This document shows positions 52,385-63,960 of a stretch of DNA of 64,000 nucleotides, one piece after another. Positions within the stretch are counted from its first letter, which is position 1. Each line of letters opens with the position of its first letter. The translations under genes were made by a program, and so were the position numbers. Under the pieces are notes generated by a model. That model did no database searches. It saw only the letters and a program-made list of their open reading frames with translations, and was not told where the DNA came from. The stretch comes from an uncultured Gemmatimonadales bacterium (GTDB taxonomy: Bacteria; Gemmatimonadota; Gemmatimonadetes; Gemmatimonadales; GWC2-71-9), in contig CAWHZQ010000020.1 in the NCBI GenBank assembly GCA_963833905.1, positions 3,293-67,292 of the forward strand, given 5' to 3'.

Positions 52385-53040
52385 CCGACGGCAGCGTCCG
52401 CGGCGCGGTCCTGGCCGGGCGGCGGGGCCACCCGCTTCGGCGGCCGGCCGAAGGGCCTGGAGACGATCGGCGGCGAGCGGATCCTCGACCGGCTGGTGGA
52501 CACGCTCACCGAGGCCCTGGGCGAGCCGCCGCTGCTCGTGGCCAACGCGCCCGACGCCGGCGCGCTGGCGTCCCGGCCTTCGGGTAGTGCCCGATGTCCG
52601 CCCGGGACTCGGGGCGCTCGGCGGGATCTACACGGCGGTGGTCGAGGCGCCGGCGCCGGTCGTGTGCGTCGCCTGGGACATGCCGTTCGTGTCGGTGGCG
52701 CTGGTCCAGGCGCTCGCCGCCGGGCTCGACGTCGCACGACGCCATGCTCGCCGAAAGCGACGGCCGCCGCGGCGTGGAGCCGCTCTGCGCCGCCTACGGT
52801 CCCGCCTGCCGCGACGCCATCGCCGCCACCCTCGATGCCGGCGACCTCCGCGCCATCGGCTTCCACCAGCGCATCTCTGTCGGTATCCTCCCTCTGTCCC
52901 AGGTCCGGCGCTTCGGCGATCCGGAGCTCCTGTTCTTCAACGTCAACACCGCGGACGATCTCGCGCGCGCGGACGGACTGTGGCGTCGACACGCATCCTC
53001 TCCATCATCGGGCGGAAGAACGCCGGAAAGACCACGCTGA
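52381..53040 (+). CDS. mobA: Molybdenum cofactor guanylyltransferase (frameshifted)
   Basis: GAVLAG, RFGGRPKG, GALGGIY, AWDMPF, EPLCAAY, FFNVNT. Confidence 0.85.
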
Positions 53041-53513
53041 CCGTGGCGCTCGCGAGCGAGCTCGCGCGGCGCGGACGGCGGGTCATGACCATCAAGCACA
53101 GCCACCACCCCGCGGACGTGGACCGGCCGGGCTCGGACAGCTGGCGGCACTTCCACGAGGGCCGTGCCGAGCGGTCGCTGATCGCGGCGCCCGATCTTCG
53201 CGTGCTCTTCGAGCGCTCCCCCGACGAGTATGATCCGGTGGCCCTCGCGCGCCGGTACATGGCCGACGCCGACATCGTCCTCGCCGAGGGCTACAAGCGG
53301 GCGCCGATCCCCAAGATCGAGGTCTTCCGGCCCTCGGTGTCGCCGACCCCGATCTTCGACGCCACCGCGCCCGACGCCCACCTCTGGGCGGCCATCGTCA
53401 CCGACGATCTCGACTTCGAGTCGCCCTGCAAGGTGATCCGCTTCCAGGACACGATGTGGCTGCAGCTGCTGGCCTCCCTGACCACCGAGTGCGCGCAGGC
53501 AATCGACGGATGA
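52980..53513 (+). CDS. mobB: Molybdopterin-guanine dinucleotide biosynthesis protein B
   Basis: IIGRKNAGKTT, IKHSHH, DSWRH, AEGYK. Confidence 0.92.
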   Translation: MASTRILSIIGRKNAGKTTLTVALASELARRGRRVMTIKHSHHPADVDRPGSDSWRHFHEGRAERSLIAAPDLRVLFERSPDEYDPVALARRYMADADIVLAEGYKRAPIPKIEVFRPSVSPTPIFDATAPDAHLWAAIVTDDLDFESPCKVIRFQDTMWLQLLASLTTECAQAIDG

Positions 53514-54764
53514 CCGCGCCGCTCTCGGCCGCCGAGGCCGCGCGCCGCATCCTCGACGACGTGCGCCGCCAGCCCGCGCTCCGGGTCCCGCTCGACGACG
53601 CGCTCGACAGCGTGCTCGCCGAGGACCTCGTGAGCCCGATCGACATCCCCGCCTGGACCAACTCGGCCATGGACGGCTACGCGGCCCGCGGCGACGACGT
53701 CCGGGGCGCGTCGGCCGAGGCGCCGGTGCGGCTCCGGGTGGTCGAGGTGCTCCCCGCGGGCGCGTTCCCCACGCGCCGGCTCGAGGCAGGCGAGACCGCC
53801 CGAATCTTCACCGGCGCGCCGCTCCCCGATGGCGCCGACACGGTCGTGCGGCAGGAGGATACCGACGAGGGCGCCGAGACGGTGACGATCGTGCGCGACC
53901 GCGACGTCGGCGTCAACTTCCGGCGCGTGGGCGAGGACATCCGGCGCGGCGCCACGGTGCTCACGGCGGGAATGGCACTGGGCCCGGCGCCGCTCGGCGT
54001 GCTCGCCTCCCTCGCCGTGGCCCAGCCATTGGTCTACCGCCGCCCGCGGGTGGCGATCCTCGGCAGCGGCGACGAGATCGTGGACGTCGACCAGCCCGAG
54101 GAGATCCTGAGCGGGCGGAAGATCGCCAGCAGCAACACCCATACGCTCGTGGCGCTGGTCCGCCACGCCGGCGGCGAGCCGGTGAATCTCGGCATCGCCC
54201 GGGACACGCCCGAGAGCCTGCGCGAGCACTTCCGGCGCGCGCTCGACTGCGATCTCCTGGTCACCACGGCCGGCATCAGCGTGGGCGAGCACGACTACGT
54301 CCGCTCCGTGCTCGACGAGCTCGGCGCCGTGCAGCGATTCTGGAAGTTGCGGATGCGGCCGGGCGCGCCGGTGGGCTTCGGGCTGCTCGGCGGGATTCCG
54401 TGGATCGGCCTGCCGGGCAACCCGGTGAGCACGATGGTGACGTTCGAGCTGTTCGTGCGGCCGGCCATTCGAAAGATGTGCGGGCATCCCCTGCCCTTCC
54501 GCCGCGCGGTGCCCGTGCGGCTCGCCGAGCCGGTCTCGGTCAGGCCGAAGCTGCAGCATTTCCTGCGCGCCGATCGTGAGCGAAGCGCCCGACGGGCCGG
54601 AGGCCCGGCTCACCGGGCCGCAGGGCTCGGGCATTCTCACTTCGATGGTGCTGGCGAACGCGCTGCTCGTCCTTCCGGAGGGTCAATTCGATACGCCTGC
54701 CGGGGCAACGGTGCAGGCGATCAGGCTCGACGATCCGGTGCATCAGCTCGAGCCCGGGTTCTGA
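53510..54764 (+). CDS. moeA: Molybdopterin molybdotransferase (frameshift near 3' end)
   Basis: SAMDGYA, IFTGAP, GSGDE, LPGNPVS, QGSGILTSM. Confidence 0.95.
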
Positions 54765-54847
54765 GCTAGCGCTCGGACCTACCGGACGCGGCCCGCCTCT
54801 CCTCTCCAGCCTTCCCCCAAGTCGTCTCTGCGTCAGTCGTTGTCTCG

Positions 54848-54890
54848 GGTGATTCCGGGGTGATTCGCGCGTGAGCGCCAGTCGTATACT
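54848..54890 (+). promoter_or_regulatory. Triple GTGA direct-repeat activator site plus -10 TATACT (site 1)
   Basis: GTGA at 54849, 54860, 54871; TATACT at 54885. Confidence 0.8.
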
Positions 54891-54949
54891 CGGCACGCAC
54901 CGAACGCCCCTACTCACGCGCATCGGGACATCGTCCCAAGGAGATATCG

Positions 54950-55966
54950 ATGCTCACCCTCAACTCGGAGCACCCGGCGATCCGGTCGCTCCACCACTTG
55001 CTTCCCCCGCTGGTCCTCGCCCTGGCGCTCGCCGCCTGCAACGGCGCGGACAGCCCCCTCGGGCCGCCCGACGGTTCGACCGTCCCCGCGAGCGAGCCGC
55101 TCGCGGCCGGCGGCGGGGCGGCGACGCCCGATTACTCGCTCGCGCCCGCCACCGGGCGGATCGTGTTCCAGTCATACCGGAGCGGCAGCGGCGACATCTA
55201 CCGGATGGACCCCCTGGGAACCACCCTCGTCCGCCTCACCACCTCGGTCGACGAAGAAAGGGTCCCGTCCTGGTCCTACGACAACAAGCGGATCGCGCTG
55301 GTGCGGCCGCGGCTGGACGCCAACAACACCAAGCACGACGACATCTACATCATCAACTCGGACGGTAGCGGCGGGCACTGGGCACGCGCGGTACCATCGC
55401 CCTGGCACCTGGGCGACCCCTCGTGGTCCCCCGATGGCTCGCGCCTGCTGGTGACCGTCACGGTGTCCTACACCTGGTATGTGGGCTGGATGGATCTGGC
55501 CACCGGTCAGATCGGCCTCTTCAACGGAGGCGGGTTCAATTATCCGGGACTCAAAGCATCGTACGACCGCAGCGGCCAGAAGATCGTGTATGTCGGCTCG
55601 GGCTCGAAGACCGTGGAGCAGATCAATGCCGATGGCACGGGTCACAAGGTCCTCGTGTCCTCGACCTTTGTGAGCCGCCCGGCCTATTCGCCGGACGGCA
55701 AGAAGGTCGCCTACAGCAGACTGATCAGTACCGGTGACGAGGAACTCTTCGTCAAGAACCTCGTGGATGGCACCACCAGGCGCATGACCTGGTCCGCGAA
55801 AGACGACAACTCACCGACCTGGTCGCCGGACGGGTCGAGGATCGCGTTCACGAGCCGCCGGTCAGGTCTGCTTCAGATCTGGACCATGAACGCCGCCACC
55901 GGGGGAAGCCTCACGCAGATCACACACACGGCCAACGCCGAACTGTACCCGCAGTGGTCCCACTAA
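54950..55966 (+). CDS. TolB-like PD40 beta-propeller lipoprotein 1
   Basis: AAGGAGA RBS, lipobox LAAC, repeated PxWSPDG, ends WSH. Confidence 0.9.
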   Translation: MLTLNSEHPAIRSLHHLLPPLVLALALAACNGADSPLGPPDGSTVPASEPLAAGGGAATPDYSLAPATGRIVFQSYRSGSGDIYRMDPLGTTLVRLTTSVDEERVPSWSYDNKRIALVRPRLDANNTKHDDIYIINSDGSGGHWARAVPSPWHLGDPSWSPDGSRLLVTVTVSYTWYVGWMDLATGQIGLFNGGGFNYPGLKASYDRSGQKIVYVGSGSKTVEQINADGTGHKVLVSSTFVSRPAYSPDGKKVAYSRLISTGDEELFVKNLVDGTTRRMTWSAKDDNSPTWSPDGSRIAFTSRRSGLLQIWTMNAATGGSLTQITHTANAELYPQWSH

Positions 55967-55984
55967 GCAGCGGCGGAGCACGAC

Positions 55985-56009
55985 ACGGCCCCCGGCACGC
56001 CGGGGGTCG
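55985..56009 (+). terminator. GC hairpin after propeller gene 1
   Basis: CGGCCCCCGGC...GCCGGGGGTCG. Confidence 0.45.
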
Positions 56010-56059
56010 TCTCGCTTCGTCCGTGTTCACAGATCGTCGATGGTCGGGAGCTTACACGA

Positions 56060-56102
56060 GGTGATCGGGAGGTGATTCGGGCGTGACCGCCGATCGTAGA
56101 CT
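56060..56102 (+). promoter_or_regulatory. Triple GTGA repeat plus -10 TAGACT (site 2)
   Basis: GTGA at 56061, 56072, 56083; TAGACT at 56097. Confidence 0.8.
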
Positions 56103-56166
56103 GGGCACGTGTTCACGGCCGTTCCGAATCCATTCGCACTGGGACCAGCGGTCCCAAGGAGAAACG

Positions 56167-57171
56167 ATGCCATCCCCCAGTCACCAGAGCCCGATCCTCG
56201 GCTCGTCCCGTTCCGTGCTTGCCCCGCTGTTCGCGCTGGCCCTGTCCGTGGCGCTCGGCGGCTGCGGCGCCACCGACAACCCGCTCGCCCCGGCCGCCGC
56301 AGACGAGGCACTCGCACCCGCCAGCGAGTCCGCTGCGCCCGCCTACGCCCTCACCGGCACCTCACAGCGGATCGTGTTCAATTCGGCCCGCAAGGGCGGC
56401 TACGACATCTTCAAGATGGATCCGCTGGGGCATAGCGTCGTCGGCCTGACCACCACTGCCTACGCCGGGGAGCCCGCCTGGTCCCAGGGCAACACGCGCA
56501 TCGCGATGGTGCGCGAGCGGCTGGACGCGTCGAAGGTCGGCCACACCGACATCTACCTGATCAACGCGGACGGGACCAACGGGCATTGGGCGCGGGCCAC
56601 CCCCTCCCCATACAATCTGCGCTACCCCTCCTGGTCTCCCGACGGGTCACGCATCCTGCTGACCATCCAGCAGCTGGGCAAGCCGTACCTGGCGACGCTG
56701 ATCCTCGCCACCGGTCAGATCAAGTTCGTCACCAGCGCTGGCATCAGCGTGCAGGGCAACTACCCGTCGTACAACCGGGCCGGCACGAAGATCGTCTTCG
56801 TCAGTCCCAGCGGCACGAGCTTTCAGGAGATGAACACGGACGGAACCGCCCGCAAGGTGCTCGCCTCGTTCGCGAAAACTCTGAGCGAGCCGAGATACTC
56901 GCCGGATGGCAGCAAGATCGCCTTCGAGATGCTGGACGGCCTCAACATCGACATCTACGTGTGGAACCTCGCCACCCACGTGAAAACCCGTCTCACCACG
57001 AGCACCGGTATCGACGAGCAGGCGACCTGGTCGCCGGACGGCTCCAGGATCGCGTTCATGAGCACGCGAACCGGGCAGCCTCAGATCTGGACCATGAGCC
57101 CGACCGGTGCGAACCAGGCGCGGATCACCTGGACGAACACGGCCGAGAAGGATCCGGCGTGGTCGCACTAG
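56167..57171 (+). CDS. TolB-like PD40 beta-propeller lipoprotein 2 (paralog)
   Basis: AAGGAGA RBS, lipobox LGGC, WSPDG repeats, ends WSH. Confidence 0.9.
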   Translation: MPSPSHQSPILGSSRSVLAPLFALALSVALGGCGATDNPLAPAAADEALAPASESAAPAYALTGTSQRIVFNSARKGGYDIFKMDPLGHSVVGLTTTAYAGEPAWSQGNTRIAMVRERLDASKVGHTDIYLINADGTNGHWARATPSPYNLRYPSWSPDGSRILLTIQQLGKPYLATLILATGQIKFVTSAGISVQGNYPSYNRAGTKIVFVSPSGTSFQEMNTDGTARKVLASFAKTLSEPRYSPDGSKIAFEMLDGLNIDIYVWNLATHVKTRLTTSTGIDEQATWSPDGSRIAFMSTRTGQPQIWTMSPTGANQARITWTNTAEKDPAWSH

Positions 57172-57190
57172 GCGGCCGCTCCAACAGCCA

Positions 57191-57234
57191 GGTGATTTCG
57201 GGATGATTCGCCGGTGAGTACCGGCCGGCATACT
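57191..57234 (+). promoter_or_regulatory. Triple repeat plus -10 CATACT (site 3)
   Basis: GTGA 57192, ATGA 57203, GTGA 57214; CATACT 57229. Confidence 0.72.
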
Positions 57235-57307
57235 TGGCGTGTCAACATCGCCCGAATCGACCAGTGATCCCTGTAGCGATCGACACTCGAGGGTGAAGGA
57301 GGACAGT

Positions 57308-57412
57308 ATGACCCGACCGACCGATGCCACCAGCGGGGCGCGCTTCGACTCTCCCCTCGCCCTGTGGATCACGATCTGGCAGCGTTACCTGGTGTACGGA
57401 CAGACGCTCTGA
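57308..57412 (+). CDS. Unannotated 34-aa small protein
   Basis: AAGGAGG RBS; MTRPTDATSGARFDSPLALWITIWQRYLVYGQTL; own promoter (site 3). Confidence 0.6.
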   Translation: MTRPTDATSGARFDSPLALWITIWQRYLVYGQTL

Positions 57413-57503
57413 CTGCGCAGGATTGGTTGCACGAAGCGGCGTTCAGCACAGGTGGCCCCCGGGCGGATCACCGCGCCGGGGGCTCGTTTCGGAGGAGCGA
57501 CCC

Positions 57504-60259
57504 TCAGGATGGCCGGTCGAGGGTCATCCGCCAGATGTCGCTCTCGCGCTCGGAGAGCGTGAAGTAGAACCGCCGGCCATCCACCGCGAATTCAGCGCGC
57601 GGGGATGGCCGCGCGGCGTCGTCGAACCGCACGAGGAGCCTGGGCTCGCCGCCGCCGGCCGGGACCGACCAGAGGCTCGCGTGGCCCTGCCCATCCAGCG
57701 CCTTGTAGTACACGGTGCGTCCCTCGGGCGACCACTGCGCCAGCAGCGGCACCGGGCGGACGGCGGGATCCCGGCTGTCGACGAGGAGCCGCGGCGCTCC
57801 CCCGTTTGGCGCGATCACCCACAGGCCCCCGTTGCGCAGGTAGACGATCTCCCGCCCGTCGGGCGACCAGCGCGCGTCCTGTCCGCCCTCGGTGGTGAGC
57901 TGGCGGGGCGCCTTCCAGCGGCCACCGGCCTCCCGCTCCACCGCGTACAGCTCGAATCGTCCCGTGCGGTCGGAGTGGTAGACCAGGCGTCGCCCGTCGG
58001 GAGACCAGTCCGGGAACCGCTGGTTGCCCGAGTCGGACACCACCGGGCTCGGCGTGCCGCCGATGGCGGGGATGACGAACAGGCGCCGGTGGCCCCCGCG
58101 GAAGCCGTAGTAGGCGACCTCCCGCCCGTCGGGCGACCAGGACGGCATGAAGGCATCGCCCGAATCCGGCGAGAGCAGCTCCGGCTCGCCGCCGGTGCGC
58201 GGCATCAGGTAGATCGCCTGGTGTCCACCGCGGTCCGAGTCGAACGCCAGCCAGCGTCCGTCCGGCGACACCGCCATGCCCTCGATCGACTGGTGGCCCG
58301 ACGTGAGGGGCTCGGCAGCCGCCGCCGACACTGGTCCGGCAGCGGGTATGGGGAGCGTGGCGACGTTGGCGTATTCGGTGAAATCGTCGTAGGCGAGCTG
58401 GCGGCCGTCGCGCGACAGATCGATCGTGTGGATCTGCAGGCCGGTGGTGAGCCGGAGCCGGCGCGCCCGCCGCTTGCCCGACCGATCGATGGCGACGCGA
58501 TAGACGTCCCGGCTGCCGTCCCGGCTGGAGACGAACAGCAGGCTCCGGCCATCCGGCAGCCAGGCGGGGCTCGTGTTGAGCGCCGCCGCGTCCGTGAGCG
58601 GCACCGGCGGGCCGCCGGACGCGGCGACGGTCCAAATGGCGCTGGGCGCGATGTTGCCGATGGCGTTGGGCGCGTAGACGAACGCCGCGTTCCCGAGCAC
58701 GTAGGCGATGCGCGAGCCGTCCGGCGACCAGGCGAACGAGTGCGGCTGCCCCACCTCCGCGATCGTCGTCGGCGGCCCGCCTTCGGCGGCGCGGACCTCG
58801 ATCCTCCGACCGACGGCGTAGACGATCTTCCGGCCATCGGGCGACCAGGCCAGGTAACTCGGACCCTCGTCGCTGATCGCCCCTTCGCCGTTGACGCCGG
58901 GACTCTGCTCCGGCGGCGCGACCAGCAGCCGGGCGGGTCCACCGAGCGCGGGGACGACGTAGATCGCCCGCCCCGCCTCGAAGCTGAGCCGCGAGCCGTC
59001 CGGGGACCAGCGGGGCCAGTGCTGGTCGCCCGGCGTGCTGTCGGCCACCGCAATGGTGCGGCCGCCGGAGAGCTGGCGGACGTAGATCCGGAGCCGTCCA
59101 TTCGGTCCCGCTGCGTAGGCGACGAACTTCCCGTCGGGCGAGAGGGCCGGATGGATCTCCAGCCCGGGCTGTCCGGTGACCCGGGTGATGCGGCCGGCGC
59201 GCAGCTCACGCGGCGCGGCTGGGGCGGAGGAGCGCCGCGCCGCCCGCGAGCGCGATCACGGCGCACGCAGCGAGCACCCACCGGCGCGCGGAACGTCGGG
59301 ATGCGAAATGGGGCTTCGAGAGGCCTGCTTCGACAGGGCTCGCCGGGCGGGGCGCGCGCGTGGCAGCTCCGGCGTCCTCGGGCAGCGACGCGGGCGTCAC
59401 CTCCACTTCCGCGGGTGGAGGGGGCCACGTGTCGGATAGCAGATCAGGCGCGTTGCGTATCTGCCGGGGATGCAGGCGGCGAGGAGTCGGCGGGCAGATC
59501 GGCAGGCGGTGGCTCGACGCTCACCGGACGCTCGGCAACGCTGGCGACCATCTGCGTCCTGATCCGCTCGGCCAGCGCCACCACGGCTTGATCCGGCGGC
59601 GCCTCCAGCTCCTGCTCCAGCAGCACTTCGTAGACTCGAGCGTGCTGGAGGGCGGCGGTGCGGTCGCCCGCCGCCACGAGCGCCTCCATCAGGCCAATGG
59701 CCACGCGGGCGTTGAGCGGATCCTGCGCCGCCAGCTTGCGCCACCATTCCGCGCAGTCCAGGTGGTCCCCACGATCGGCCGCCCGCCGGCCCAGACGCTC
59801 GAGCGCGGTGGCATGGTCCCGCGCCAGGCCCGCGCGCTCCTCCTCGAGCCAGCGCTCGAACTCGCCCGCCTCCGAGAGATGAAAGCCGTCGAGAAATGGA
59901 CCGCCGTATTCCGCGACCGCCCGCTCCGGGTAGCCGGCCTTCAGTGCGGCCGAGAACGCCGCGACGTCGCTCGTGACCAGATCGGGATTGAGCCGGACGT
60001 CCCGGGTTCCCAGGAAGACCTCGTCGGCGCCCATCTCCTGCCGAAGCGCGTAGAGGGCCTGGTTGAGTCCTTTCCGCGCGCGCTCCTCGTCCGTCTCCGC
60101 CCAGAGCATGCCGATCAGCCGGTCGCGTGTCATGCCCTGCTCGCCCGAAGCCGCCAGCAGGGCGAGCAGCCCGAGGCGCCGCGGCTGGGAAGCCGCGCCG
60201 CTCAAGCGCTGACCATCGCGCTCCAGGAACAACCTGCCAAACGTGTTAAGACGTAACAG
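57504..60259 (-). CDS. Transmembrane SARP/BTAD transcriptional activator with a C-terminal PD40 propeller (frameshifted)
   Basis: RLNTFG, QPRRLGLLALL, RDRLIGMLW, YGGPFLDGF, DPLN (HTH + BTAD); TM WVLAACAVIALAGGAALL; many WSPDG repeats; shifts near 59440 and 59210. Confidence 0.88.
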
Positions 60260-60355
60260 GTTAGGCTCGGTGATTCTGAGGTGACCGGTGGGAGCGATCT
60301 TGGTACCAATTGTAGAGTCGGAGCAGTGTGCCCACAAGACACAAGGAGCGCCGAA

Positions 60356-60820
60356 ATGCGTCCAGAAACCGAGCGGGTCGTTCGCGAGAGCTGGGCCCAA
60401 TTCGAGCCGGTCGCGGTGGAGTCGGCCGCGTTCTTCTACGATAAGCTGTTCGAGCTTGACCCCGAGGCGCAGCGCCTCTTCGCCAAAACCGACATGGTCG
60501 CACAGGGTCACAAGGTCATGCGGATGTTCGCCGAGATCGTGCACAACCTCGACCGGCCGGAGGCGCTGGTCGCCGAGGTGGCTGACCTCGGCCGTCGGCA
60601 CGTCGGCTACGGCGTGCAGGATCACCAGTACGACTCGGTCGGCACCGCGCTGCTCTGGACGCTCGAGCGCGGCCTGGGTCCGGCCTTTACCGACGAGATC
60701 CGGGATGCCTGGACCGAAGCCTACCTCCTCTTCTCGAGCGTCGCGCGGCGGGCCACCGCCCGCGCGTCCCAGCCCGCGAGGCTACACGGCGCTACCATAA
60801 GTCCTTATAGAAGAACCTGA
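60356..60820 (+). CDS. Single-domain globin 1
   Basis: FYDKLFELDP, LGRRHVGYGV, VGTALLWTL, AWTEAY. Confidence 0.92.
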   Translation: MRPETERVVRESWAQFEPVAVESAAFFYDKLFELDPEAQRLFAKTDMVAQGHKVMRMFAEIVHNLDRPEALVAEVADLGRRHVGYGVQDHQYDSVGTALLWTLERGLGPAFTDEIRDAWTEAYLLFSSVARRATARASQPARLHGATISPYRRT

Positions 60821-60827
60821 TGGGCAT

Positions 60828-60870
60828 GGTGAGATCCAGGTGATTTCAGCGTGACTCCGCCCGGTAGACT
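60828..60870 (+). promoter_or_regulatory. Triple GTGA repeat plus -10 TAGACT (site 4)
   Basis: GTGA at 60829, 60840, 60851; TAGACT at 60865. Confidence 0.8.
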
Positions 60871-60947
60871 TGTTCCCGTCAACTGGGCAGCGGCGAGGCC
60901 CGAAGCCGATGCCACCATCCAACGGGCCCTCGATTAGGAGTCACACC

Positions 60948-61475
60948 ATGAAGACCATGACCGCACTGGGCCTGAGCTCGCTCATCGTCCTGACGCTGGC
61001 GGCATTCACCGGCGCGGCGCGTCCGACGATCCTGCCGGCCCCGAGCGAATCCTCCTCCTTCTTCGCCGAGCTCCACGGCGACCTGCACGCCAGCCCCCGC
61101 GGGACGGCACGGTTCGGCACGGTCGAAGGCGGCCCGGGCGCCACGAAGTTCAGCCTGTCGCTGGGTGCCGACGGCGCGGATGGCTCCGTGCTCTTCACGC
61201 GGACCAACGGCGGCCGGCTGACGCCCGGCACTTACGCCATCTCGGGCCGGGACAACGGCACGGACGAGATCCGGGCGCTCGTCATGACCGGCTCCGCCAC
61301 TCGGCCCACCGGCGTCTTTCGGGGCCAGTCGGGCTACCTGATCGTCACCTCGGCGACCGACAACGTCATTCGTGGGCGGTTTGAGGTGGCGGCCACGGGC
61401 TTTCTCGCCTCGGATCCGGCGGACGAGTCCCGGCCGATGAAGGCGACCGGCATGTTCACCGCCACCCGCGAATAG
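60948..61475 (+). CDS. Hypothetical secreted beta-rich protein
   Basis: AGGAG RBS, signal peptide, beta-strand pattern ending GMFTA. Confidence 0.7.
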   Translation: MKTMTALGLSSLIVLTLAAFTGAARPTILPAPSESSSFFAELHGDLHASPRGTARFGTVEGGPGATKFSLSLGADGADGSVLFTRTNGGRLTPGTYAISGRDNGTDEIRALVMTGSATRPTGVFRGQSGYLIVTSATDNVIRGRFEVAATGFLASDPADESRPMKATGMFTATRE

Positions 61476-61495
61476 CGGCGAGAGAGGAGCGCACC

Positions 61496-61921
61496 ATGAC
61501 TGGCGAGCAGATCCGGCTGGTCCGGGTCACCTGGCTCGAGGTGGCCCAGATCGCCGATGCCGCGGCACGGCTGTTCTATGAACGCCTGTTCGAGACCGAT
61601 CCGGAGGTCCGTCAGCTCTTCGCGCACAGCGACATGGACCAGCAGCGAGTGAAACTCCTGCGGACCCTGACGGTCGCCGTGGGGGCGCTGGACAAGCTGG
61701 AGACGATCCGGCCGGCACTCGAAAACCTGGGACGACGGCACGTCGGCTACGGCGTTGAGGATCGTCATTACGAGCTGGTCGGAGCCGCGCTGCTGTGGAC
61801 GTTGGAACAGGGGCTGGGAGACGGCTATACCGCCGCGGTGCGTGAGGCATGGACCGCCGCCTACACGACCCTGGCGACCATCATGCGCGAGGCGGCGGCC
61901 ACGGTGGAGCGAGCCGCCTGA
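61496..61921 (+). CDS. Single-domain globin 2
   Basis: FYERLFETDP, LGRRHVGYGV, VGAALLWTL, AWTAAY. Confidence 0.93.
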   Translation: MTGEQIRLVRVTWLEVAQIADAAARLFYERLFETDPEVRQLFAHSDMDQQRVKLLRTLTVAVGALDKLETIRPALENLGRRHVGYGVEDRHYELVGAALLWTLEQGLGDGYTAAVREAWTAAYTTLATIMREAAATVERAA

Positions 61922-61937
61922 CGCTCGGGCCGGGTGA

Positions 61938-61966
61938 TTGATTCCGGCGGGGAACCCCGCTACTTT
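61938..61966 (+). promoter_or_regulatory. Sigma-70 promoter TTGATT-N17-TACTTT
   Basis: Immediately upstream of the riboswitch aptamer. Confidence 0.65.
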
Positions 61967-61977
61967 TGAGCCTTGTA

Positions 61978-62101
61978 GAAGGGGAGTAGCTCATCCGCCA
62001 CGAGGCGGACGACTGGATCGTCAAGACTGTCCGACGCGTTCGGGCACGGTCCAGCCGGGGTCGAGGGAGACACGATCTCCCCGTATCAGAGCGAGACCTT
62101 C
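61978..62101 (+). ncRNA. yybP-ykoY manganese riboswitch
   Basis: GAAGGGGAGTAGC, CGTCAAGAC and GCGAGACCTTC hallmark segments; upstream of a TerC operon. Confidence 0.88.
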
Positions 62102-62141
62102 GTCCACGCGAAAGCGGAGCGGACGGGGTCTCGCTCTTTTT
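62088..62141 (+). terminator. Riboswitch expression-platform intrinsic terminator
   Basis: GAGCGAGACC...GGTCTCGCTC stem followed by TTTTT; overlaps the aptamer 3' strand. Confidence 0.8.
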
Positions 62142-62184
62142 GTCATCAGACCCCACTCACCAGCAAGGTGCTACAGAGGAGCGC

Positions 62185-63024
62185 ATGAACAACGTCAAGA
62201 CCATGGTCCTGATGGCCGGCCTTCTGGGCCTGTTCCTGCTCGCCGGCCAGCTGCTCGGGGGGTCGCAGGGGCTCGTGCTCGCCCTGGTCCTGGGCAGCGC
62301 GTTCAACTTCATCATGTACTTCTTCTCGGATAAGATCGTGCTCCGGATGTACGGCGCGCAGATCGTCAGCGAGGAGCAGGCGCCCGAGCTCTACCGGATG
62401 GTCGACCGGCTCCGCCAGCGGGCGGGACTGCCGATGCCGGTCGTCGCGGTGGCGCCGCACGAGCAGCCCAACGCGTTCGCCACCGGACGGAACCCCGACC
62501 ACGCGGTCGTCGCGGTGACGACGGGCATCCTCAAGTACATGCCGCAGGAGGAGCTCGAGGGCGTCATCGCGCACGAGCTGGCGCACGTCAAGAACCGGGA
62601 CATGCTGATCACCACGCTGGCCGCGGGCGTCGCCGGCGCGATCAGCAACCTGCCCTACCTGCTCCTGTTCGGCGGCGGGCGGAGCGATGAGGACGGCCAC
62701 CCGATCGCGCAGCTGGCGCTGCTCCTGCTCGCGCCGATCGGCGCCATGCTGATCCAGTTCGCCGTGTCGCGCCAGCGGGAGTTCGAGGCCGACCGGGTCG
62801 GCGCCGAGATCCTCGGCCGGCCGATGCCGCTGGCCAACGCGCTCCGCCGGCTCGACGCGATGGCCCAGCGGATCCCGATGCAGGTGGCTCCGGCCGCCGC
62901 GCCGCTCGCGCAGGTGAATCCGCTCGCGGCCCACGGCGGCGTGGCCGGCCTGTTCAGCACGCACCCGCCGACCGAGGAGCGCGTCGCCCGGCTCGAGGCG
63001 ATGACGGTGGCGGCGAGCCGGTAG
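62185..63024 (+). CDS. htpX: Zinc metalloprotease HtpX
   Basis: PNAFATGRNP, HELAHVKNRD, SRQREFEAD, FSTHPP. Confidence 0.93.
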   Translation: MNNVKTMVLMAGLLGLFLLAGQLLGGSQGLVLALVLGSAFNFIMYFFSDKIVLRMYGAQIVSEEQAPELYRMVDRLRQRAGLPMPVVAVAPHEQPNAFATGRNPDHAVVAVTTGILKYMPQEELEGVIAHELAHVKNRDMLITTLAAGVAGAISNLPYLLLFGGGRSDEDGHPIAQLALLLLAPIGAMLIQFAVSRQREFEADRVGAEILGRPMPLANALRRLDAMAQRIPMQVAPAAAPLAQVNPLAAHGGVAGLFSTHPPTEERVARLEAMTVAASR

Positions 63025-63960
63025 GTGGGTCATCACGGCCTGGCCGTCTGGCTGGGCTTCACGGGGATCGTGATCGCCCTCCTGGTCCTCGACCTGGGGG
63101 TGCTCAACCGGCGGTCCCACGTGCTGTCGTTCAAGGAGGCGATGAGCTGGAGCGGCGGGCTCATCGCCTTCGCGCTCTTGTTCGGGCTCTTTCTCTGGTG
63201 GCGCGAGGGCGCGCAGCACGCGCTCGAGTACTACACCGGCTACCTGATCGAGCTCTCCCTCAGCGTCGACAATCTCTTCGTCTTCATCCTGATCTTCAAC
63301 TACTTCGGCGTGCCCTCCGAGGCCCAGCCGAAGGTGCTCAAGTGGGGCATCCTCGGCGCCATCGTGATGCGGTTCATCATGATCACGGCGGGGGCGCTGC
63401 TGCTCCATCGGTTCGAGTGGATCATCTACGTCTTCGGCGGGATCCTGATCCTGACCGGCATCCGGATGCTGCTGCAGCGGGATGAGCGGATCGAGCCGGA
63501 GAAGAACCCCATCGTGCGGCTGGCGCGGCGGGTGCTGCCGTTCACCGACAGCTACGACGGCGCCAACTTCACCTGCCGGACCAGCAGCGGCCGGCTGCTC
63601 GCCACGCCGCTGGTGCTGGTGCTCCTCGTGGTCGAGTGGTCGGATCTGGTCTTCGCCATCGACAGCATTCCCGCCATCTTCGCGATCACGCGCGACCCGT
63701 TCCTGGTCTACAGCTCCAACGTGTTCGCCATCCTGGGGCTCAGGGCGCTCTTCTTCGTGCTGGCGGGGATGCTGGACAAGTTCGTCTACCTGAAGCCGGG
63801 GGTGGCGCTGATCCTGGTGTTCGTCGGGGGGAAGATGGCGGTGAGTGCCTGGCTGCACGTGCCCACTCTCGCGAGCCTGGCGGTCGTCATCCTCACCCTC
63901 GGCGCGTCGGTGGGCCTGTCGCTCTGGCGGAGCGCCAGGGAGGCGCGACAGGCCGCCTAG
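63025..63960 (+). CDS. TerC/Alx family metal homeostasis membrane protein
   Basis: LSVDNLFVF, DLVFAIDSIPA, SNVFAILGLR. Confidence 0.95.
   Translation: MGHHGLAVWLGFTGIVIALLVLDLGVLNRRSHVLSFKEAMSWSGGLIAFALLFGLFLWWREGAQHALEYYTGYLIELSLSVDNLFVFILIFNYFGVPSEAQPKVLKWGILGAIVMRFIMITAGALLLHRFEWIIYVFGGILILTGIRMLLQRDERIEPEKNPIVRLARRVLPFTDSYDGANFTCRTSSGRLLATPLVLVLLVVEWSDLVFAIDSIPAIFAITRDPFLVYSSNVFAILGLRALFFVLAGMLDKFVYLKPGVALILVFVGGKMAVSAWLHVPTLASLAVVILTLGASVGLSLWRSAREARQAA

What the first reader, a model, noticed from the sequence alone, without database searches (positions are those of the whole stretch)
54848..61921. Candidate new system: transmembrane SARP/BTAD-propeller one-component regulator with its local regulon
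Seen: one protein with HTH-BTAD, one TM helix and a PD40 propeller, surrounded by genes sharing one upstream motif: two PD40 lipoproteins, a 34-aa ORF, a secreted protein plus globin, and probably a second globin. Known: characterised SARPs are mostly cytoplasmic activators of actinobacterial secondary metabolism. Inference: a ToxR-like membrane-tethered SARP whose sensor has the same fold as its induced lipoproteins (ligand sink or co-receptor), with globins hinting at an NO/O2 or envelope-stress output. I cannot verify novelty without a literature or database search.
Basis: partly seen in the sequence, partly recalled or inferred. Interest (0 to 1): 0.88.

Follow-up and report, generated by a model that had tools for sequence, protein, structure and literature searches.

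The report
Membrane-anchored SARP regulator with local regulon
A soil Gemmatimonadales bacterium encodes a membrane-spanning transcription activator of the SARP type with an outward-facing double beta-propeller sensor, and one repeated DNA box marks the lipoprotein, small-peptide and globin genes it most likely switches on.

Summary
On the minus strand (57504-60259) lies a winged-helix + BTAD module, an 88-aa Pro-rich linker, one TM helix and a tandem PD40 propeller. In this assembly it is split over three frames. Short-read contigs from four soil studies lack one base at exactly both breaks, and close relatives have single ORFs of about 890-975 aa, so the split is most likely an assembly error.

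Five promoters in the window, two more elsewhere in the genome and one weaker site carry three GTGAT(T/C)-type heptads at 11-bp spacing. The third heptad starts 14-15 nt before a TAnACT -10. This is the layout described for SARP boxes. The pattern gives 4 hits in the window against 0.02 expected.

Targets are four PD40 lipoproteins, a conserved 34-aa ORF, an LpqH-like secreted beta-barrel with a globin, and a second globin divergent from the regulator.

Across 103 genomes of the genus, box, regulator and globin co-occur. The box always sits 8 nt from the regulator's first matched codon.

DNA binding, the signal and any sensor-lipoprotein contact remain untested. The domain architecture is common in metagenome databases, but seven full-text searches found no paper on it. 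I rate it a new variant of a known kind.

The parts
54849..54890 (+). Box 1: heptads at 54849, 54860 and 54871 (GTGATTC, GTGATTC, GTGAGCG), with -10 TATACT at 54885-54890
54950..55966 (+). PD40 lipoprotein 1 (338 aa, lipobox LAAC). Its 5'UTR has a hairpin GGGAC-N3-GTCCC abutting the ribosome-binding site.
56061..56102 (+). Box 2: heptads at 56061, 56072 and 56083, with -10 TAGACT at 56097-56102
56167..57171 (+). PD40 lipoprotein 2 (334 aa, lipobox LGGC), 44% identical to lipoprotein 1
57192..57234 (+). Box 3: heptads at 57192, 57203 and 57214, with -10 CATACT at 57229-57234
57308..57412 (+). 34-aa ORF with a strong Shine-Dalgarno site. The core GARFDSPL(A/S)LWIxIWQRxLVxG is invariant in 6 aligned copies. 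The ORF was found in 10 of 103 genomes of the genus.
57504..59255 (-). Regulator, third reading frame: periplasmic tandem PD40 beta-propeller (PD40 197.6 bits). It contains a compensated out-of-frame stretch between 58457 and 58474.
59206..59520 (-). Regulator, second reading frame: Pro-rich linker and the single TM helix (RRSARRWVLAACAVIALAGGAALL). The frame breaks lie near 59450 and 59216-59219.
59444..60259 (-). Regulator, first reading frame: OmpR-type winged helix plus BTAD (PF03704 48.1 bits). The CTG at 60259-60257 aligns with the ATG/GTG start of orthologs.
60270..60318 (+). Box 4, in the divergent region: GTGATTC at 60270, GTGACCG at 60281, a degenerate third unit at 60292, and a candidate -10 TAGAGT at 60313-60318. 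It starts 8 nt from the regulator's first matched codon.
60356..60820 (+). Globin 1 (single-domain 3/3 globin, PF00042 65.6 bits), divergent from the regulator
60829..60870 (+). Box 5: heptads at 60829, 60840 and 60851, with -10 TAGACT at 60865-60870
60948..61475 (+). Secreted 175-aa protein in no Pfam or NCBIfam family. The AF2 model is an all-beta barrel (pLDDT 88). The best structural match is the LpqH-like lipoprotein 4xin_B (Z 10.1).
61496..61921 (+). Globin 2 (PF00042 63.5 bits), 45% identical to globin 1. The best solved relative is 3wfw_A (E 7e-27). It starts 21 nt after the secreted-protein gene, so the two are probably one operon.

Best explanation
The minus-strand gene at 57504-60259 encodes one protein of about 900 aa. 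It is a membrane-tethered one-component transcription activator of the SARP type. Its N-terminal winged helix and BTAD domain are cytoplasmic. A single TM helix anchors it, and a tandem PD40 beta-propeller faces the periplasm as the sensor.

Proposed mechanism:
- After an unknown extracytoplasmic cue, protomers bind side by side to three GTGAT(T/C)-type heptads spaced 11 bp apart.
- The last heptad ends 7-8 bp upstream of a TAnACT -10 and occupies the -35 position. From there the protein recruits RNA polymerase, as SARPs do.
- In this genome this would switch on at least seven promoters: four PD40 lipoproteins, a 34-aa peptide, an LpqH-like secreted barrel with globin 2, and the divergent globin 1.
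- The box next to its own start codon probably also gives autoregulation.

Shown here: the domain order, the topology signals, the box with its statistics and geometry, its conservation, and its co-occurrence with the regulator.
Inferred: DNA binding, activation rather than repression, autoregulation, and the signal.

The three-frame split in the window is most likely an assembly artefact.
For: Architecture:
- Pfam BTAD 48.1 bits (cut-off 22.1) and PD40 197.6 bits.
- A profile of 13 HTH-BTAD modules aligns collinearly with EmbR (2fez_A), profile positions 8-252 to chain residues 16-272, E 5e-6.
- AF2 of the 943-aa ortholog P0005 gives strands and helices at 28-123, a helical domain at 124-273, a disordered stretch at 274-350, a helix at 351-369 and beta-propeller at 379-940. 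Foldseek's best hits are tandem propellers: 2ymu, 1nr0, tricorn 1k32.
- There is one hydrophobic segment (Kyte-Doolittle 1.65), with 6 K/R on its N side and 3 on its C side.

Single ORF:
- Of the best 120 homologs, 78 carry BTAD plus PD40 in one protein.
- 19 of 26 matches in the genus lie in open frames of 880 aa or more, including the nearest relative G246 at 974 aa.
- Short-read contigs of 4 studies lack one base at both break points.
- The housekeeping gene moeA in the same window is frameshifted too.

Box:
- 4 hits against 0.02 expected in the window.
- In a genome-wide PWM scan the five training sites score 36.8-43.6 bits by construction (four in the window, one at C4:20505). The next best are 20.1 and 16.8 bits, and 5 shuffles of contig C9 gave no hit above 14.
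- Every strong site lies upstream of, and points toward, a gene.
- The third heptad starts 14-15 nt before the -10 in G000 and in ten sites of five relatives.
- The published SARP layout is direct repeats 8 nt upstream of the -10 that overlap the -35 (PMC11301090, passages).
- No sigma-70 consensus promoter was found in 54600-62300.

Link to this regulator (my hand tally of the tables):
- The 24 genomes with the regulator hold 102 pattern hits, and 18 of 24 have 3 or more.
- The 79 genomes without it hold 76 hits, and 6 of 79 have 3 or more. Two of those six carry a broken or partial copy.
- The reversed control pattern gives 16 hits in all 103 genomes.
- In G000 and ten relatives the box starts exactly 8 nt from the regulator's first matched codon.
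- In that stretch only the heptad bases are conserved, while the spacer varies. When the stretch is read as protein, this gives radical residue changes, as expected for a DNA site.

Regulon:
- The box precedes unrelated genes in relatives: globin, peptide, barrel protein, PD40 and other lipoproteins, a beta-helix lipoprotein and a NOS.
Against: - No binding or expression data exist. Direct repeats at 11-bp spacing suit any OmpR/PhoB-type winged helix, so another regulator could own the box.
- The Pfam winged-helix hit is below its cut-off (20.0 against 26.2 bits).
- The globin-1 site has only two clear heptads, and its best -10 lies about 7 nt farther away than in the other sites. Activation there is less certain.
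- The window gene really is in three frames. A second assembly's protein, P0001 (97% identical, 584 aa, 76-kb contig), is also propeller-only. A true frameshift in this lineage is therefore not excluded.
- In the window the codon aligned with the orthologs' start is CTG, a rare start.
- G001 has the regulator but 0 hits to the strict pattern. Its sites carry 2 or more mismatches.
- Genomes of one genus are not independent, so the co-occurrence is overstated.
- The tallies include the unpublished genome G227.
Confidence: 0.7

Rival explanations
1. The boxes are real operator sites, but another winged-helix protein binds them, for example an OmpR/PhoB-type response regulator or one of the roughly 10 paralogous BTAD proteins of this genome. 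On this reading the SARP-propeller gene is only a neighbour or a target.
For: - Tandem direct repeats at one helical turn are the general binding mode of OmpR-family domains. The passage in PMC11301090 compares SARP binding to that of GlnR and PhoP.
- G000 has 11 BTAD matches.
- Conserved residues of the stretch I take to be the recognition helix are shared by paralogs at 48-50% identity. Specificity therefore cannot be read from sequence.
Against: - Box frequency tracks the presence of this ortholog group across 103 genomes.
- The box abuts this gene's start at a fixed 8 nt in G000 and ten relatives.
- Paralogs have their own, different triple repeats next to them, for example TGACCGG at C9:128138 beside the paralog at C9:127426-128127.
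Confidence: 0.12
2. In this particular strain the regulator is a genuine pseudogene with two frameshifts. The box-carrying genes would then be an orphaned or silent regulon.
For: - The window shows three frames.
- P0001, from another assembly, is also a propeller-only 584-aa ORF at 97% identity.
Against: - Both breaks are single extra bases compared with contigs from four independent short-read studies. One break lies in a run of four identical bases.
- moeA in the same window is also shifted. A fourth lipoprotein gene and one lipoprotein paralog on contig C4 are shifted too.
- Genome completeness is only 73.7% for 3.6 Mb in 24 contigs. This pattern is typical of indel-rich long-read assemblies.
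- All boxes and target ORFs are intact.
Confidence: 0.1
3. The shared motif is only a promoter cassette copied along with duplicated lipoprotein genes, or a -35-type element for an alternative sigma factor. It would have no dedicated activator.
For: - The four PD40 lipoprotein genes are paralogs, and their UTRs share a hairpin. Part of the similarity does come from duplication.
Against: - The box also precedes non-homologous genes: the peptide, the barrel protein and a globin in G000, and a NOS and a beta-helix lipoprotein in G226. In these cases the flanks are not alike.
- Three phased copies of a heptad are not the form of a sigma -35 element.
- Two further PD40 lipoprotein paralogs with the same UTR hairpin lack the box.
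Confidence: 0.05

Closest known systems
SARP-family activators (AfsR of Streptomyces; EmbR of Mycobacterium, PDB 2fez)
   Same: - An N-terminal OmpR-type winged helix is followed directly by a BTAD domain. The alignment with EmbR is collinear.
- The putative sites are phased direct heptads ending 7-8 bp upstream of the -10 and replacing the -35. This is the layout described for AfsR and other SARPs (PMC11301090, passages).
   Different: - The organism is Gemmatimonadales, not an actinobacterium.
- The protein is membrane-anchored with a periplasmic tandem propeller, not soluble.
- The targets are lipoproteins, a small peptide and globins, not a biosynthetic gene cluster.
- There are three heptads, where two DNA-binding domains are seen on the afsS promoter.
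ToxR/CadC-type membrane-integrated one-component regulators
   Same: - A cytoplasmic N-terminal winged helix, one TM helix and a C-terminal periplasmic sensor.
- No phosphorelay domains. The description of CadC and ToxR comes from abstract starts in the search listing (PMC5430869, PMC10629549).
   Different: - There is an extra BTAD domain between the DNA-binding domain and the membrane.
- The sensor is a PD40 tandem propeller of about 560 aa, unrelated to the ToxR or CadC periplasmic domains.
- An 88-aa Pro-rich linker is present.
BguR / SusR membrane-spanning one-component regulators of Bacteroidota
   Same: A single-pass membrane protein that couples a periplasmic tandem beta-propeller sensor directly to a DNA-binding domain without phosphotransfer. 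A conserved motif lies before the neighbouring target genes (bioRxiv 10.64898/2026.01.10.698779, abstract and passages).
   Different: - The polarity is opposite. BguR has a signal peptide and an N-terminal sensor, with a C-terminal GerE helix-turn-helix.
- Its propellers are of the HTCS/Y_Y_Y type, not PD40.
- It controls glycan utilisation loci.
Ser/Thr kinases with the same PD40 tandem-propeller sensor
   Same: The sensor is 49-53% identical over 96-97% of its length. This holds in 18 of the best 120 homologs and in G000's own kinase at C4:28117-31038.
   Different: The output is a Hanks-type kinase domain instead of wHTH-BTAD.

Membership tests
SARP family (OmpR-type wHTH + BTAD activators) | BTAD domain (PF03704) | tested here: met
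   48.1 bits against a cut-off of 22.1, residues 113-235 of the 272-aa piece
SARP family (OmpR-type wHTH + BTAD activators) | N-terminal OmpR-type winged helix contiguous with the BTAD domain | tested here: met
   Pfam Trans_reg_C reaches only 20.0 bits against a cut-off of 26.2. However, a 13-sequence profile aligns as one stretch with EmbR 2fez_A residues 16-272, E 5e-6. AF2 shows the strand/helix pattern at residues 28-123.
SARP family (OmpR-type wHTH + BTAD activators) | Target promoters with phased direct heptad repeats about 8 bp upstream of the -10, overlapping the -35 | tested here: met
   Site architecture, compared with the description in PMC11301090. Only the presence and geometry of the sites were tested.
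SARP family (OmpR-type wHTH + BTAD activators) | The protein binds those repeats and activates transcription | not testable with these tools
   Needs EMSA, DAP-seq or reporter assays
SARP family (OmpR-type wHTH + BTAD activators) | Soluble actinobacterial regulator of secondary metabolism or differentiation (the usual sense of the name) | tested here: not met
   Gemmatimonadales names appear on homologs. A TM helix and a periplasmic domain are present. The targets are not biosynthetic genes.
ToxR/CadC-like membrane one-component regulators | wHTH in the cytoplasm, a single TM helix, a periplasmic C-terminal sensor and no phosphorelay domains | tested here: met
   The topology is inferred from the positive-inside rule (6 K/R against 3).
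ToxR/CadC-like membrane one-component regulators | Periplasmic domain homologous to those of ToxR or CadC | tested here: not met
   The domain is a PD40 tandem propeller
TolB (Tol-Pal system) | Scores above the TolB equivalog model | tested here: not met
   TIGR02800 gives 202 bits for the regulator ortholog, and 128 and 161 bits for the lipoproteins, against a cut-off of 343
BguR/SusR-type membrane one-component systems | N-terminal periplasmic propeller sensor with Y_Y_Y domain, and a C-terminal GerE-type helix-turn-helix | tested here: not met
   The domain order is reversed and the families are different ones
Single-domain 3/3 globins related to flavohaemoglobin and Vgb | Globin fold family PF00042 and close solved relatives | tested here: met
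   65.6 and 63.5 bits. Best solved relatives are 3wfw_A at E 7e-27 and 3s1i and 3ubc at E 1e-23. Haem binding itself was not tested.

The most novel reading that the evidence does not exclude
The PD40 tandem propeller may be a so far unstudied periplasmic receptor module that reads one envelope-borne protein or peptide cue.

- In the same cell it is wired to two outputs: a membrane-tethered SARP and a Hanks-type kinase.
- Each of the two sits near paralogous PD40 lipoproteins, which could act as outer partners or co-receptors.
- The regulon-encoded 34-aa peptide could feed back on the system.
- The conserved output, cytoplasmic globins (plus a NOS in one species), would make this a trans-envelope switch for NO/O2 handling in Gemmatimonadota.
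Probability: 0.15. Interest if true: 0.85.

Novelty: new variant of a known kind. Interest (0 to 1): 0.62.

Why it matters
- SARPs are studied almost only as soluble switches of antibiotic clusters in actinobacteria. Here the same DNA-binding and polymerase-recruiting module is anchored in the membrane of a Gram-negative-type soil phylum and joined to a large periplasmic propeller.
- The predicted operator and regulon are unusually clean. That gives a testable entry into signal transduction in Gemmatimonadota, an abundant and poorly studied soil phylum.
- It also gives an entry into a domain architecture that occurs in many metagenome proteins: 78 of the best 120 homologs carry it.
- It links a periplasmic sensor to globin expression, and in one genome to NOS expression.

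Tried and rejected
- Complex prediction: the regulator ortholog (residues 26-943) was folded with the 34-aa peptide. Verdict 'no answer' (score 0.00, mark 0.32). This is not evidence either way.
- Foldseek of the secreted-protein model against the PDB gave nothing at E <= 0.001. Only the VIA wide search gave a usable match, LpqH-like at Z 10.1, and that is fold level only.
- The ESM Atlas search gave unnamed Gemmatimonadota clusters and a weak DUF6252 lead at 0.88. I did not follow it.
- Single-sequence phmmer of the HTH-BTAD piece against the PDB found only designed TPR proteins. The profile was needed to reach EmbR.
- The family-wide search for the peptide (151 genomes, E <= 1) gave mostly noise. 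Besides G000, only one hit reached 1e-4. The genus search was the informative one.
- My first generic triple-repeat scan (6 or more of 7 positions identical in all three copies) was too strict and missed the known sites. It was replaced by the scan: 11 hits against 0-1 in shuffles, 5 of them within 5 kb of a BTAD gene.
- NO synthase: found in 1 of 103 genomes of the genus and not in G000. The NO link is therefore anecdotal.
- Rfam: no family at gathering score in 54000-62500.
- The sigma-70 and terminator scan gave 0 promoters and 3 terminator-like sites, no more than in shuffles.
There is therefore no expression evidence.
- No box was found before htpX or terC (62140-63960) or before moeA. 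I do not count them in the regulon.
  - PMC11672702 and PMC12153261 were opened by passage search and were irrelevant.
  - PMC10599522 (a Geobacter regulator) was seen only in a listing.
  - Subscription journals are not covered. Supplementary files were not consulted, as they are closed.

Full report
WHAT IS THERE

The window is part of contig C20 of a 3.6-Mb, 24-contig genome with 73.7% completeness. Its close protein homologs carry the name Gemmatimonadales. GC content is 65-74%.

Between 54849 and 61921 I find the following genes:
- On the + strand, two PD40 lipoproteins at 54950-55966 and 56167-57171.
- A 34-aa ORF at 57308-57412.
- A globin at 60356-60820.
- A secreted 175-aa protein at 60948-61475.
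- A second globin at 61496-61921.
- On the minus strand, between the small ORF and the first globin, the regulator.

Downstream follow htpX and terC. Upstream lies moeA.

THE REGULATOR IS SPLIT HERE, BUT IS ONE GENE IN NATURE

In the window the HTH-BTAD part stops at 59444. The linker and TM part is in a second frame (59206-59520), and the propeller is in a third (57504-59255).

Evidence for a single gene:
- Homologs at 94-95% identity are single proteins of 892-943 aa that read straight through both places.
- Of the best 120 homologs, 78 carry BTAD plus PD40, 18 carry a protein kinase plus PD40, and 24 are PD40-only and mostly short.
- In the genus, 19 of 26 matches lie in open frames of 880 aa or more. 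The nearest relative, G246, has 974 aa.
- Contigs of four short-read soil metagenome runs from four studies were laid on 57400-60400. They lack one base at 59216 or 59219 in 4 of 4 runs, and at 59450 in the 2 runs that cover it. These are exactly the two break points.
- The first break point lies in a run of four identical bases.
- The same call shows a compensated pair of indels (58457 and 58474). This explains a six-residue stretch that departs from all orthologs.
- moeA in this window is also shifted: G001's MoeA aligns in frame 1 to residue 387 and then in frame 2.

I conclude that the assembly carries single-base insertions. One fact points the other way. P0001, from another assembly, is also a propeller-only ORF at 97% identity.

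ARCHITECTURE

- Pfam gives BTAD at 48.1 bits and a sub-threshold Trans_reg_C at 20.0 bits.
- A profile of 13 HTH-BTAD modules, all translated from fetched loci, aligns in one stretch with EmbR (2fez_A, residues 16-272, E 5e-6).
- The AF2 model of ortholog P0005 (41-row alignment, mean pLDDT 76) has a winged-helix-like unit at 28-123, a helical domain at 124-273, a disordered stretch at 274-350, a helix at 351-369 and continuous four-stranded blades at 379-940.
- Residues 1-25 of that gene call are disordered. I think they are not translated (see below).
- Foldseek matches the C-terminal part to tandem propellers: 2ymu, Aip1 1nr0 and tricorn 1k32, at E 1e-21 to 1e-17.
- The only hydrophobic segment (Kyte-Doolittle 1.65) has six K/R before it and three after it. 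The DNA-binding end should therefore be cytoplasmic. The linker is 88 aa with 23% Pro.

THE BOX

Read directly, each of four promoters has three heptads starting 11 bp apart. They have the form GTGAT(T/C)N, with the third usually GTGA(G/C)NN. The third heptad starts 14 or 15 nt before a TAnACT hexamer.
- The pattern GTGATNNNNNNGTGAYNNNNNNGTGA with at most 1 mismatch hits 4 times in the window against 0.02 expected.
- A fifth site, at 60270, has two clear heptads.
- Genome-wide there are three more sites:
  - C4:20505, before a third PD40 lipoprotein paralog.
  - C20:123981, with four heptads, before a fourth paralog that is frameshifted.
  - C17:59369, a weaker site at 16.8 bits, before a 190-aa lipoprotein.
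- Shuffled sequence gave no PWM hit above 14 bits.
- No sigma-70 consensus promoter is found in the region.

CONSERVATION AND LINKAGE

- Synteny:
  - G001 has moeA, regulator, globin, barrel protein, globin, htpX and terC, without the lipoproteins and the peptide.
  - G010 has only the regulator and the globin between moeA and htpX.
  - G009 has the regulator, the globin, the peptide and one PD40 lipoprotein.
  - In each case the box is kept before the genes that are present.
- Five further loci show the same box and the same 14-nt distance to the -10. The box there precedes a globin, the peptide, the barrel protein, PD40 and other lipoproteins, a DUF1565/beta-helix lipoprotein and, in G226, a nitric-oxide synthase oxygenase gene at 548 bits.
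- Box frequency across the 103 genomes of the genus (my hand tally):
  - The 24 genomes with a regulator match at E <= 1e-75 hold 102 of the 178 pattern hits, and 18 of 24 have three or more.
  - The other 79 genomes hold 76 hits, and 6 of 79 have three or more.
  - The reversed control pattern hits 16 times in all.
  - Of the six exceptions, G235 and G257 carry a broken or partial copy.
- The globin is found in 24 of 103 genomes, 22 of which are among the 24 with the regulator. In all 12 genomes whose regulator is 73% or more identical, the two matches lie 91-99 nt apart on one contig.
- In G000 and ten relatives the box begins exactly 8 nt from the codon matched by the regulator's first query residue.
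- Across four species only the heptad bases in that stretch are invariant, while the spacers vary. Long gene calls that read this stretch as protein show 'H..ITE', with radical changes at the spacer residues. Shorter gene calls start with M or V at the codon that is CTG in the window. The stretch is therefore an operator next to the start codon, not coding sequence.
- These counts include the unpublished genome G227. Related genomes are not independent.

THE TARGETS

- The lipoproteins are 44% identical to each other. They resemble the sensor only at the level of generic PD40 repeats, 23-29% over long pieces. All stay far below the TolB equivalog cut-off.
- The two globins are 45% identical. 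They are closest to single-domain globins of Methylacidiphilum (3wfw, 3s1i, 3ubc) and then to Vgb and flavohaemoglobins.
- The secreted protein has no Pfam or NCBIfam family. It has 197 representative relatives. It folds with pLDDT 88 into a small beta-barrel whose best match is an LpqH-type mycobacterial lipoprotein: Z 10.1, rmsd 3.5 over 106 residues.
- The 34-aa ORF is found in 10 of 103 genomes of the genus. It has an invariant core and a variable N-terminus. Its function is unknown.

MECHANISM

I commit to a membrane-tethered SARP-type activator that binds the three heptads, takes the place of a -35 contact and recruits RNA polymerase. It probably also limits its own expression through the box beside its start codon. 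I give this 0.7.

The cue is unknown. The PD40 propeller and the exported targets suggest a periplasmic protein or peptide, or an envelope state. The constant partner is a cytoplasmic globin, which points to O2 or NO handling.

Rivals: another winged-helix protein owns the box (0.12); the regulator is a true pseudogene in this strain (0.10); the motif is a copied promoter cassette or a sigma element (0.05).

COMPARISON AND NOVELTY

- The protein shares the wHTH-BTAD module and the operator layout of SARPs. It fails the usual sense of that family, which is soluble, actinobacterial and tied to secondary metabolism.
- It shares its topology with ToxR and CadC, but not their sensor.
- BguR of Bacteroidota is a functional analogue with opposite polarity and different domains.
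- The architecture is frequent and machine-named in databases.
- I rate it a new variant of a known kind, with interest 0.62.

Noticed in passing
G000 contig C4:28117-31038 (locus L060:8618-11539): This genome also encodes a 973-aa Ser/Thr kinase whose periplasmic tandem propeller is 53% identical to the regulator's sensor over its whole length. The same sensor module is thus wired to two different outputs in one cell.
   Followed up: partly
G000 contig C4, about 26018 and 27349 (minus strand): Two further PD40 lipoprotein paralogs sit just upstream of that kinase gene; one is frameshifted. They share the 5'UTR hairpin of the box-regulated lipoproteins. They lack the GTGATTC box and share a different upstream sequence (TGTCCGG.TTTCGCC...GCGCGATGGA.{1,2}GTGTAGGG).
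   Followed up: partly
window 54924-54947 and 56140-56164; also C4:20588 and C20:123875: A hairpin GGGAC-N3-6-GTCCC lies directly against the AGGAG ribosome-binding site. It occurs six times in the genome, each time before a PD40 lipoprotein gene. It may control translation or mRNA stability.
   Followed up: partly
locus L054:8505-9704 (G226): A bacterial nitric-oxide synthase oxygenase gene (PF02898, 548 bits) sits behind the same box, in a 9-kb cluster of six boxes next to the regulator. It is the only NOS found in the 103 genomes of the genus.
   Followed up: yes
window about 54590 (moeA, 53456-54769): moeA is frameshifted. G001's MoeA aligns in frame 1 up to residue 387 and in frame 2 from residue 373 on, and Pfam finds no MoeA_C domain. 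The mobA/mobB ORFs at 52496-53513 also look fused or shifted. The assembly seems rich in indels.
   Followed up: partly
G000 C9:128138, C4:84400, C8:135083, C5:70663, C9:6947, C12:9462, C14:155243: Other triple repeats at 11-bp spacing, with different words (TGACCGG, TTGAGAT, ATGAGAT, GTGAGGT, ATGAG), are each followed by a TAnnnT. Several lie beside paralogous BTAD genes. Each paralog may have its own box.
   Followed up: partly
window 58457-58474: Relative to short-read contigs of all four runs, the window has one extra base at 58457 and lacks one at 58474. This puts six codons out of frame: the window reads GKRRARRLRL where orthologs read GKP.G.P.RL.
   Followed up: yes
loci L048, L049 and L050 (G249, G231, G223): In three relatives the small-peptide gene may be longer, at about 61 aa. 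It would have an acidic N-terminal extension before the invariant core, which starts right after a G-G-A. This resembles a leader-plus-core layout.
   Followed up: no
window 57454-57490: A GC-rich inverted repeat followed by a T-rich stretch lies between the convergent small ORF and the regulator gene. It is a likely two-way terminator. It was read by eye only, and the consensus scan did not list it.
   Followed up: no
locus L014:4811-5457 (G013): A paralogous BTAD regulator (51% identical, 917 aa) has a C-terminal tail that does not look like PD40. It has its own triple repeat before a divergent 179-aa secreted protein that resembles the barrel protein of the window.
   Followed up: no
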